DNA of 64,000 bases from Octopus sinensis. Taxonomy: Eukaryota. The notes under the pieces were generated by a model that was not told where the DNA came from, did not search any database, and saw nothing but the letters and a program-made list of their open reading frames with translations. Positions within the stretch are counted from its first letter, which is position 1, and each line of letters starts with the position of its first letter. Location of the stretch: positions 49,662,001 to 49,726,000 of the forward strand of contig NC_042999.1 in NCBI RefSeq assembly GCF_006345805.1, given 5' to 3'. Positions 57,170 through 57,925 of this stretch are shown piece by piece. Made by a program: the position numbers and the translations under genes.

Positions 57170-57470
57170 AACGGGAAGCTTTATGAAAATAGACAAAAGA
57201 CGAAGGCAGGTGGAAAACAAACAAACAATTGTTTTAGTATGGCGCTCAGGAAATATAAATAAAACAAGTCTTTAACGTTTCGAGCCTACGCTCTTCAACA
57301 GAAAGATACACAGAGAGAAAAAAACACAGAAAGAAGGAGAGAAAAAAAATGCGTGCAGTAACTAACGAACCAACATGGCGATCTGATTTCGGCCAGAAGT
57401 CAAAGATCAAACATGAGACGCGAGAGCGAAATTAGGGGAGATAATAGGGTTGAGTGACCAGCTCCAACAT
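57170..57470 (-). mobile_element. Family H1 repeat with best-preserved minimal hammerhead-like motif
   Basis: 57306..57269: TCTTT CTGTTGA A GAGC GTAG GCTC GAAAC GTT AAAGA. Confidence 0.68.
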
Positions 57471-57925
57471 AAGGGTGTGTGTGTGTGTAAGAGAGAGTAT
57501 TAGTGCGTATGAGAGGTCTGGACGTGTGTATGTATAGGGTTGGTGTATGTATTAGTATGTATTAGTACGTATTAGTATGTATAAGGGTGTGTGTGTGTGT
57601 GTATGAGAGAGCATTAGTGCATATGAGAGGTCTGGACGTGTGTATGTATAGGGTTGGTGTATGTATTAGTATGTATTAGTATGTATAAGGGTGTGTGTGT
57701 GTGTGTGTGTGTGTATGAGAGAGTATTAGTGCGTATGAGAGGTCTGGACGTGTGTATGTATAGAGTTGGTGTATGTATTAGTATGTATTAGTACGTATTA
57801 ATATGTATAAGGGTGTGTGTGTGTGTATGAGAGAGCATTAGTGCGTATGAGAGGTCTGGACGTGTGTATGTATAGGGTTGGTGTATGTATTAGTATGTAT
57901 TAGTTGGTGTATGTATTAGTATGGC
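57470..57925. repeat. Minisatellite, four ~110-bp units with internal (GT)n and TATTAGTATG sub-repeats
   Basis: GAGAGGTCTGGACGTGTGTATGTATAG recurs four times. Confidence 0.92.

What the first reader, a model, noticed from the sequence alone, without database searches (positions are those of the whole stretch)
57170..57925. Best-preserved H1 hammerhead, contiguous with a 110-bp minisatellite
UCUUU CUGUUGA A GAGC GUAG GCUC GAAAC GUU AAAGA has perfect stems I and II and a palindromic AACGUU suited to dimeric stem III; CpGs are intact, so the copy looks young. On the sense (minus) strand it is preceded by four tandem units that may be part of the element. This is the best construct for testing the A6U core.
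Basis: partly seen in the sequence, partly recalled or inferred. Interest (0 to 1): 0.7.

Follow-up and report, generated by a model that had tools for sequence, protein, structure and literature searches.

The report
Octopus Penelope-type hammerhead remnant, U6 core
A short dispersed octopus repeat carries a minimal hammerhead-ribozyme motif with U in place of the conserved core A6, a change shared with sister copies; it is likely the leftover 3' end of a Penelope-like retrotransposon, is predicted to cleave poorly, and the minisatellite beside it is probably a separate local expansion.

Summary
The motif is real: a type I minimal hammerhead at 57306-57269 (minus strand) with 5-bp stem I, 4-bp stem II, the extra base after A9 and a self-complementary ACGU stem III. 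It fits the published Penelope-like-element (PLE) consensus except at position 6 (U for A). It is the best preserved of 5 copies in the window; 4 of 4 with a visible 3' end stop 93-104 nt past the cleavage site at a (TA)n tract. All 4 close copies lack A6 (U,U,U,C), so the change is inherited, not decay. The genome is Octopus (a published Naiad PLE end lies 1.6 kb away). No PLE ORF was found and no outside copies could be fetched, so PLE linkage is inferred. The 112-bp array is real but lies 168 bp from the core, holds no hammerhead, differs in composition and is not beside other copies; these are shorter, so membership is open. Published mutagenesis and folding predict weak cleavage with U6. 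Verdict: new core variant of a known kind, probably vestigial; interest 0.35.

The parts
57269..57306 (-). Type I minimal hammerhead motif with U6 core: stem I 5 bp, extra A after A9, stem II 4 bp (GUAG loop), ACGU with no loop 3, U17; predicted cleavage between 57274 and 57273
   Evidence: sequence, numbering, descriptor and shuffles, published consensus
57171..57352 (-). Shared body of the dispersed repeat: T-rich tract, hammerhead, about 100 nt of 3' sequence ending at (TA)n
   Evidence: BLAST/nhmmer hits at 43069-43251, 75-6, 54090-53882, 50110-49968; profile search finds the same 5 copies and no sixth
57353..57468 (-). CpG-rich 5' extension, probably part of the element (longest 5' end in the window); single copy by unanchored search
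   Evidence: no other hit; its last 16 nt match 12 of 16 at the collinear place upstream of the copy at 44, the other 14 offsets scoring 0-7 (window chosen after seeing it; the unanchored test was not significant, 402 of 2000 shuffles)
57157..57170 (.). (TA)7 tract at the 3' junction, the likely insertion target
57469..57923 (.). Minisatellite, four units of 112-114 bp, A/C-rich on the element strand, no hammerhead; units differ at 1-3 of 82 core positions
   Evidence: unit core found only here
57924..57960 (.). 37-bp spacer between SINE half and array, holding most of an 18-bp perfect palindrome centred on a TA run (57925-57942)
57961..58119 (-). 5' half of an abundant SINE-like repeat that hosts the whole stack; breaks at the start of its internal (TA)n tract
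   Evidence: (23 5'-half hits in the window); 'SINE' is my label from recall, ARAGORN finds no tRNA gene
56801..57032 (-). Rest of the (TA)n tract and 3' half of the same SINE-like repeat
   Evidence: gap to 5' half 975 bp against 15-107 bp in uninterrupted copies
57033..57155 (-). A second, unrelated short insertion in the same TA tract, ending in a duplicated 9-mer
   Evidence: single copy in the window
43069..43238 (+). Family copy (C3 at 43114): U6, C7, stem III broken (C/A); 87% identical to the 57-kb copy; directly behind a SINE 5' half
1..104 (-). Family copy cut by the window edge (C3 at 44): C6, G7; directly behind a SINE 5' half
49982..50111 (-). Decayed family copy (C3 at 50106): U6, stem II damaged, no CpG left
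53900..54090 (-). Sister-subfamily copy (C3 at 54029): keeps A6 but has C4 and A8; one compensatory C-G to G-C pair in stem I

Best explanation
This is a minimal type I hammerhead motif with an inherited U6 core inside a dispersed Octopus repeat that is likely the 5'-truncated 3' end of a Penelope-like retroelement, likely inserted by reverse transcription into the (TA)n tract of a SINE, and predicted to cleave weakly or not at all. Shown: the motif, the five copies, their common 3' end at (TA)n about 100 nt past the cleavage site, their ragged 5' ends, the nesting between the two SINE halves, non-A at position 6 in all four close copies. Inferred: a PLE endonuclease nicked the TA tract, reverse transcription began about 100 nt downstream of the hammerhead and stopped early, leaving a lone copy with no ORF and no partner. 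In the ancestral element the motif would have cleaved as a double hammerhead (intermolecular ACGU stem III, swapped stem I arms); in this lineage U6 breaks the CUGA U-turn and is predicted to pair U4-U7 with A14-G16.2, so the ribozyme is probably vestigial, carried along because mobilisation does not need cleavage. The 112-bp array most likely multiplied in place, later than or independently of the insertion.
For: Consensus match: U-rich flank, CUGANGAH, G10.1-C11.1, GAAAN-palindrome-NUH, short stem I (PMC4209133 Fig. S3; text), all met except A6. Variation among 5 copies follows hammerhead rules: N7 = U,C,U,C,G and H17 = U,A,C,A,U (never G), while C3, G5, A9, the extra A, G10.1, G12-A15.1 and U16.1 are invariant; 40 of 45 stem cells pair, against 22-56% for slid registers. 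3' ends at (TA)n 103, 96, 93, 104 nt past the cleavage site in 4 of 4 copies with that end in the window. In the anole PLE the ORF starts at the hammerhead, the cut site is 26 nt into it and reverse transcription starts 111-118 nt into it, i.e. about 85-92 nt past the cut (PMC11167929; my subtraction). PLE bias for microsatellites, and most min-HHRs being lone remnants of truncated PLEs. A published Octopus Naiad 3' end sits the same way in another SINE's TA tract at 58874-59064 (40-mer exact match, 2 places in the PMC8557442 supplement). If the master had A6, four independent losses have probability 2e-5 to 2e-3 at 7-20% divergence. Activity: single and double mutants of the CUGA turn showed low activity apart from the C3-G8 swap (PMC9901934); natural A6C is slow in Mg2+; U6 lowers the modelled open-core fraction from 0.083 to 0.016 (0.73 to 0.14 in the 43-kb copy). 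Dispensability: HHR mutants did not affect insertion in vitro; Naiads lack canonical HHRs yet amplify.
Against: No RT or GIY-YIG Pfam match in 255 of 257 open stretches of 60 aa or more that passed a complexity filter (shorter and low-complexity stretches were not scanned), so PLE linkage is not shown. No copy from outside the window could be fetched, so the family picture rests on five copies. Covariation is not significant against letter shuffles (111 of 500), and the 66-nt folds are no more stable than shuffles (z -0.31 for this copy). A motif whose other core positions and stems are kept across subfamilies 65-69% identical argues for selection that may still act. 3 of 5 copies follow a SINE 5' half in the same orientation, which a chimeric origin would also explain. 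No cleavage data exist for U6 in any paper I saw.
Confidence: 0.6

Rival explanations
1. Same PLE origin, but the U6 hammerhead is a working, deliberately slow variant that cleaves as a dimer when the PLE protein, a chaperone or Mn2+ helps it fold; the U4-U7/A14-G16.2 helix would act as an off state.
For: All other core positions and both stems are kept in the 57-kb copy; the anole PLE hammerhead cleaves only with protein added; A6C variants recover good rates in Mn2+; the sister subfamily carries another tolerated-type change, U4C, described as sufficient in vivo for a viroid.
Against: PLE min-HHRs are already slow with an intact core; CUGA-turn mutants were not rescued by any second change; the modelled double hammerhead (-13.7) is far above two folded monomers (-20.4) for U6 (secondary structure only).
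Confidence: 0.2
2. The 112-bp array is an internal part of the element's 3' UTR, carried in with this, the longest copy (compatible with the PLE origin).
For: Array, unique segment and hammerhead lie inside one gap of the SINE with no TA tract between array and unique segment; the array is C/A-rich where the SINE's own tract is T/G-rich on this strand; the other copies end too early to test it; some PLE families contain tandem repeats.
Against: Unit core occurs nowhere else in the window; composition differs sharply (A 0.38/G 0.04 against A 0.17/G 0.15-0.20); unit shows no significant similarity to the adjoining segment (187-650 of 2106 window tiles score as well); units differ by 1-3 of 82 while family copies differ by 13-36%; six other arrays of period 50 or more exist and 7% of the window lies within 180 bp of one.
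Confidence: 0.25
3. The repeat is the tail of a chimeric SINE (SINE 5' half plus hammerhead tail) transcribed by RNA polymerase III.
For: 3 of 5 copies follow a SINE 5' half in the same orientation; no SINE 3' half within 3 kb of the 43-kb copy.
Against: Junctions differ in each copy; the SINE 3' half is present behind the 57-kb copy; runs of 8 and 7 T (57 kb), 5 and 7 T (43 kb) lie before the hammerhead and would end Pol III transcription (terminator rule from general knowledge); SINE TA tracts also took a Naiad end in the opposite orientation.
Confidence: 0.1
4. A non-LTR retrozyme: tandem hammerhead-bearing repeats that make circular RNA.
For: A tandem array stands next to a type I hammerhead; retrozyme monomers occur dispersed.
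Against: The array units contain no hammerhead; retrozymes have one per 150-450-bp unit, mostly canonical; all 5 copies are single.
Confidence: 0.04
5. Chance resemblance to a hammerhead inside an ordinary repeat.
For: No Rfam hit; the catalytic A6 is missing; covariation not significant.
Against: 0.01 descriptor hits per shuffle against 2 observed; invariant and variable positions follow the consensus across subfamilies.
Confidence: 0.03

Closest known systems
Minimal hammerheads (min-HHR) of metazoan Penelope-like elements, Cervera and de la Pena 2014 (PMC4209133)
   Same: Type I topology, U-rich 5' flank, extra base between 9 and 10.1, G10.1-C11.1, palindromic 15.2/16.2 with no loop 3, short stem I, mostly lone dispersed copies; GAAACGUU in 15 of 56 listed motifs.
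   Different: U6 in place of A6 (all 56 listed motifs have A6, but their descriptor required it); stem II of only 4 bp; no cephalopod among the 56; no ORF linkage shown here.
Poseidon PLE of Anolis carolinensis (PAc), Frangieh et al. 2024 (PMC11167929)
   Same: Insertion ends lie roughly 90-100 nt past the hammerhead cut site; AT-rich targets.
   Different: PAc has a canonical, protein-assisted active core and a known ORF; here the core is U6, the target is (TA)n and the ORF is unknown.
Natural A6C hammerhead of phage Bcep176 (PMC3088659, PMC7151607)
   Same: Natural substitution at position 6 with the rest of the core intact.
   Different: C6 not U6; a single phage ribozyme with full stems, shown active (better in Mn2+); ours is a minimal, dimer-dependent motif in a high-copy repeat, untested.
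Octopus Naiad PLEs (Naiad_Obim, Naiad_Ovul), Craig et al. 2021 (PMC8557442)
   Same: Same host genus, (TA)n targeting, truncated 3' ends nested in SINE tracts (one at 58874-59064).
   Different: Naiads lack canonical hammerheads; short motifs of our repeat were not found in the Octopus entries of that supplement, so it is a different family.
Non-LTR retrozymes (PMC7229834; bioRxiv 10.64898/2026.07.22.740005)
   Same: Type I hammerhead, proposed PLE origin, no protein.
   Different: Retrozymes carry the hammerhead in each tandem unit; here the tandem unit has none.

Membership tests
PLE minimal hammerhead (min-HHR) | Core C3 U4 G5 . N7 G8 A9, G12 A13 A14 A15.1, U16.1 H17 | tested here: met
PLE minimal hammerhead (min-HHR) | A at core position 6 | tested here: not met
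   U at 57298; U,U,U,C in the four close copies, A only in the sister subfamily. Hence filed as a variant, not a member
PLE minimal hammerhead (min-HHR) | Extra nucleotide between 9 and 10.1, G10.1-C11.1 pair, palindromic 15.2-16.2, short stem I, U-rich flank | tested here: met
PLE minimal hammerhead (min-HHR) | Covarying stems across the family | tested here: inconclusive
   one compensatory pair in 9, 111 of 500 shuffles as high; slid registers much worse
PLE minimal hammerhead (min-HHR) | Self-cleavage as a dimer | not testable with these tools
   needs in vitro assay; folding model predicts a competing helix
Penelope-like element (EN+) | ORF with RT and GIY-YIG domains upstream of the hammerhead | tested here: inconclusive
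Penelope-like element (EN+) | pLTR tandem or inverted arrangement | tested here: not met
   all 5 copies are single, none tandem or inverted within 3 kb; met by few genomic copies even in known families
Penelope-like element (EN+) | 3'-anchored, 5'-truncated copies in microsatellite targets | tested here: met
   4 of 4 visible 3' ends at (TA)n, 93-104 nt past the cut site; 5' ends differ
Naiad PLE | Similarity to published Octopus Naiad ends; no canonical hammerhead | tested here: not met
   short-motif searches of the supplement gave no Octopus match for this repeat; only motif searches and the displayed ends, no alignment
Non-LTR retrozyme | Hammerhead in each unit of a tandem repeat | tested here: not met
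EN-minus PLE (Athena/Coprina) | Reverse-complement telomeric repeats beside the hammerhead; telomeric location | tested here: not met
   only isolated hexamer matches, no tandem run; copies are interstitial

The most novel reading that the evidence does not exclude
A high-copy Octopus Penelope-like lineage (one copy per 13 kb here; about 10^5 genome-wide if this window is typical) has fixed U at the invariant hammerhead position 6 and still keeps the fold under selection, either as a protein- or Mn2+-switched ribozyme with a built-in off helix, or as a non-catalytic RNA element for the PLE reverse transcriptase; with its A6-keeping U4C sister subfamily it forms a natural experiment on whether PLE hammerheads need to cleave at all.
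Probability: 0.2. Interest if true: 0.65.

Novelty: new variant of a known kind. Interest (0 to 1): 0.35.

Why it matters
The role of hammerheads in Penelope-like elements is open: they are nearly universal in canonical PLEs, slow in vitro, absent from Naiads and dispensable in the one reconstituted insertion assay. A prolific family that amplified with a core change expected to cripple catalysis is direct natural evidence on that question. If U6 is dead, cleavage is dispensable for spread; if it works, the hammerhead core is looser than mutagenesis suggests, and CUGANGA-based searches have missed a large class. The single locus itself is an ordinary fossil insertion.

Tried and rejected
Outside copies: exact 20-mer in GTDB genomes, 0 hits; relaxed pattern, 1 hit, a chance match inside a 460-aa bacterial ORF with no hammerhead core or stem I (L001). 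Translations of the repeat as bait for mis-predicted proteins: none (26 candidates, 140 candidates). Region upstream of the 54-kb copy as a possible inverted PLE ORF: no hit. Rfam: nothing relevant. Register shift (reading UUGAAGA as U3...A9 with an A6): rejected from the sequence, since stem II would shrink to one pair, stem I would lose its closing pair, and the 43-kb and edge copies do not keep that heptamer. Array unit as a diverged homologue of the adjoining segment: not significant. Telomeric-repeat tract: not present. Upstream similarity to the 54-kb copy: not significant (756 of 2000 shuffles). A partner for dimer formation nearby: the next same-strand copy (54 kb) keeps ACGU but has C4/A8 and a mismatched stem I arm. 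Literature: 'hammerhead ribozyme'+'octopus', 'hammerhead'+'cephalopod'+'retrotransposon', the 20-mer, 'hammerhead'+'A6U'+'core' and U6 core strings (20 of 34 listed) showed no description of this family or of a natural U6 core; the O. vulgaris repeat paper has no 'hammerhead' or 'ribozyme' in its main text (supplement not read). Two key papers were not held and could cover it: Lunse 2017 (PMC5785218) and Arkhipova 2017 (PMC5850863). Repbase and Dfam were not searchable.

Full report
Observation. The quoted 38-mer lies at 57306-57269 on the minus strand. It reads as a type I hammerhead: 5-bp stem I, C3 U4 G5 U6 U7 G8 A9, an extra A, 4-bp stem II with a GUAG loop, G12 A13 A14 A15.1, C15.2 G16.2 U16.1 U17, then the other arm of stem I. 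A descriptor with position 6 free finds 2 hits in the window and 0.01 per dinucleotide shuffle (100 shuffles). Rfam does not score it. The tandem array is real (period 112, 57475-57904; four units) but ends 168 bp from C3, with a 116-bp unique segment between.

Host and setting. A 40-mer from near 58980-59020 matches exactly the 3' ends of Naiad_Obim and Naiad_Ovul in the supplement of PMC8557442 (2 places), so the genome is Octopus and a truncated Naiad end sits at about 58874-59064 in the TA tract of a SINE-like repeat. The finding has the same setting. An abundant two-part repeat (23 5'-half hits; 'SINE' is my label from recall) normally has 15-107 bp of microsatellite between its halves; here the halves at 58119-57961 and 57032-56801 are 975 bp apart. 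Into that gap are stacked a 37-bp spacer, the array, the unique segment, the hammerhead repeat ending in (TA)7, and a second unrelated 123-bp insertion.

The family. BLAST, nhmmer and a five-copy profile find exactly 5 copies (C3 at 57301, 43114, 44, 50106, 54029). Identities to the 57-kb copy are 87% (43 kb), 67% (50 kb), 65% (54 kb). The 4 copies whose 3' end is in the window stop at a TA tract 103, 96, 93 and 104 nt past the cleavage site; 5' ends are ragged. Positions free in hammerheads vary (N7 = U,C,U,C,G; H17 = U,A,C,A,U, never G) while C3, G5, A9, the extra A, G10.1, GAAA and U16.1 are invariant. Stems pair in 40 of 45 cells, far above slid registers, with one compensatory change; this is not significant against letter shuffles (111 of 500). 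Position 6 is U, U, U, C in the four close copies and A only in the 54-kb sister subfamily, which has C4 instead. Four independent losses of A6 are improbable (2e-5 to 2e-3), so non-A6 came from the master element. The 57-kb copy is the only one with both stems, ACGU and the rest of the core intact.

Comparison with print. PMC4209133 (main text parts 1-3 of 4; supplement parts 1-2 of 3) defines PLE min-HHRs: U-rich flank, CUGANGAH, G10.1-C11.1, palindromic 15.2-16.2, short stem I, mostly lone copies from truncated PLEs, no cleavage as monomer and low cleavage as dimer. Our motif meets all of this except A6; 15 of its 56 listed motifs have GAAACGUU, none is from a cephalopod, all have A6 (required by their descriptor). 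PMC11167929 (parts 1-2 of 4) shows for the anole PLE that reverse transcription starts 111-118 nt into an ORF whose hammerhead cut site is at 26, that the hammerhead cleaves only with protein, and that hammerhead mutants do not affect insertion. PMC8557442 (passages; supplement searches) reports microsatellite targeting and prolific Naiads without hammerheads. On position 6: natural A6C is slow in Mg2+ and better in Mn2+ (PMC3088659 passages; PMC7151607 part 1 of 4); all single and double mutants of the CUGA U-turn but the C-G swap had low activity (PMC9901934 passages). I saw no number for A6U specifically. Retrozymes need a hammerhead in each unit (PMC7229834 passages; bioRxiv 2026.07.22.740005 part 1 of 5 and passages). 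PMC6155905 (passages), PMC13282606 (part 1 of 3 and term search) and PMC11014351 (term search) added nothing on this family. Lunse 2017 and Arkhipova 2017 were not held.

Mechanism. Inferred: a PLE endonuclease nicked the TA tract, reverse transcription started about 100 nt past the hammerhead and ended early. The ancestral motif would work as a double hammerhead through intermolecular ACGU; the outer A14/U17 of the palindrome compete with the active form (-16.1 against -13.7 kcal/mol). With U6 the monomer's best fold pairs U4-U7 with A14-G16.2 and the open-core fraction drops from 0.083 (A6) to 0.016; these are secondary-structure estimates only, and the A6 form also has a misfold. Together with loss of the U-turn purine (established hammerhead structure), weak or no cleavage is the likeliest outcome. 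This locus has no competent partner nearby.

The array. Against membership: unit core unique to this locus, different composition, no similarity to the adjoining segment, units only 1-3 of 82 apart while family copies are 13-36% apart, six other long-period arrays in the window with 7% of it within 180 bp of one. For: no TA tract separates it from the unique segment, its strand bias is opposite to the SINE's own tract, and the other copies are too short to test. I put membership at about one in four.

What is not shown. No PLE ORF: 255 of 257 filtered open stretches of 60 aa or more were scanned against Pfam; the clear hits were mariner transposases at 12 kb and 43-44 kb. No outside copies were obtained. 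Age is not established: CpG o/e is 1.11 here, 0.57 in the window, but 1.12 in the 54-kb copy too.

Verdict. A real PLE-type minimal hammerhead motif with an inherited, apparently undescribed U6 core (searches) in a common Octopus repeat; new variant of a known kind, probably vestigial, a fair construct for the proposed test. Interest 0.35; 0.65 if U6 proves active or selected (probability 0.2).

Noticed in passing
window 58874-59064 (+): 5'-truncated 3' end of an Octopus Naiad PLE (40-mer exact match to Naiad_Obim and Naiad_Ovul ends) inserted in the TA/TG tract of a SINE copy in the opposite orientation; identifies the host genus.
   Followed up: yes
window 52165-51890 (-), C3 at 51982: An unrelated minimal-hammerhead-like motif with a canonical CUGAAGA core, extra A and 6-bp stem II, decayed after GAAA, lying behind a tRNA-like head (A- and B-box-like motifs, by eye) and a (CTA)n/(AAT)n tract with no T run over 3 between head and core: possibly a Pol III SINE carrying a hammerhead. 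Single copy in the window.
   Followed up: partly
window 53900-54090 (-): Sister subfamily copy with C3 C4 G5 A6: U4C instead of A6U, a 3-nt loop 2 and a compensatory stem I pair; a natural comparison for the U6 lineage.
   Followed up: partly
window 43239-44525: A mariner element (Transposase_1 and HTH_48 matches) inserted in the TA tail of the 43-kb family copy; another mariner remnant near 12000-12850.
   Followed up: partly
window 57033-57155 (-): Second short, CpG-rich insertion with a duplicated 9-mer at its end, stacked in the same TA tract; single copy in the window.
   Followed up: partly
window 57925-57942: Perfect 18-bp palindrome centred on a TA run between the SINE half and the array; may mark a fold-back at the insertion junction.
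   Followed up: no
window 29358-29686 and 42553-42095: Other SINE copies with 327 and 457 bp between their halves, i.e. further insertions or expansions in the internal microsatellite.
   Followed up: no
window 45919-46899, 39474-39951, 47441-47806, 15586-15748, 56549-56798: Several long-period local tandem duplications (328, 251, 184, 62, 26/52 bp), showing that such arrays are common here.
   Followed up: partly
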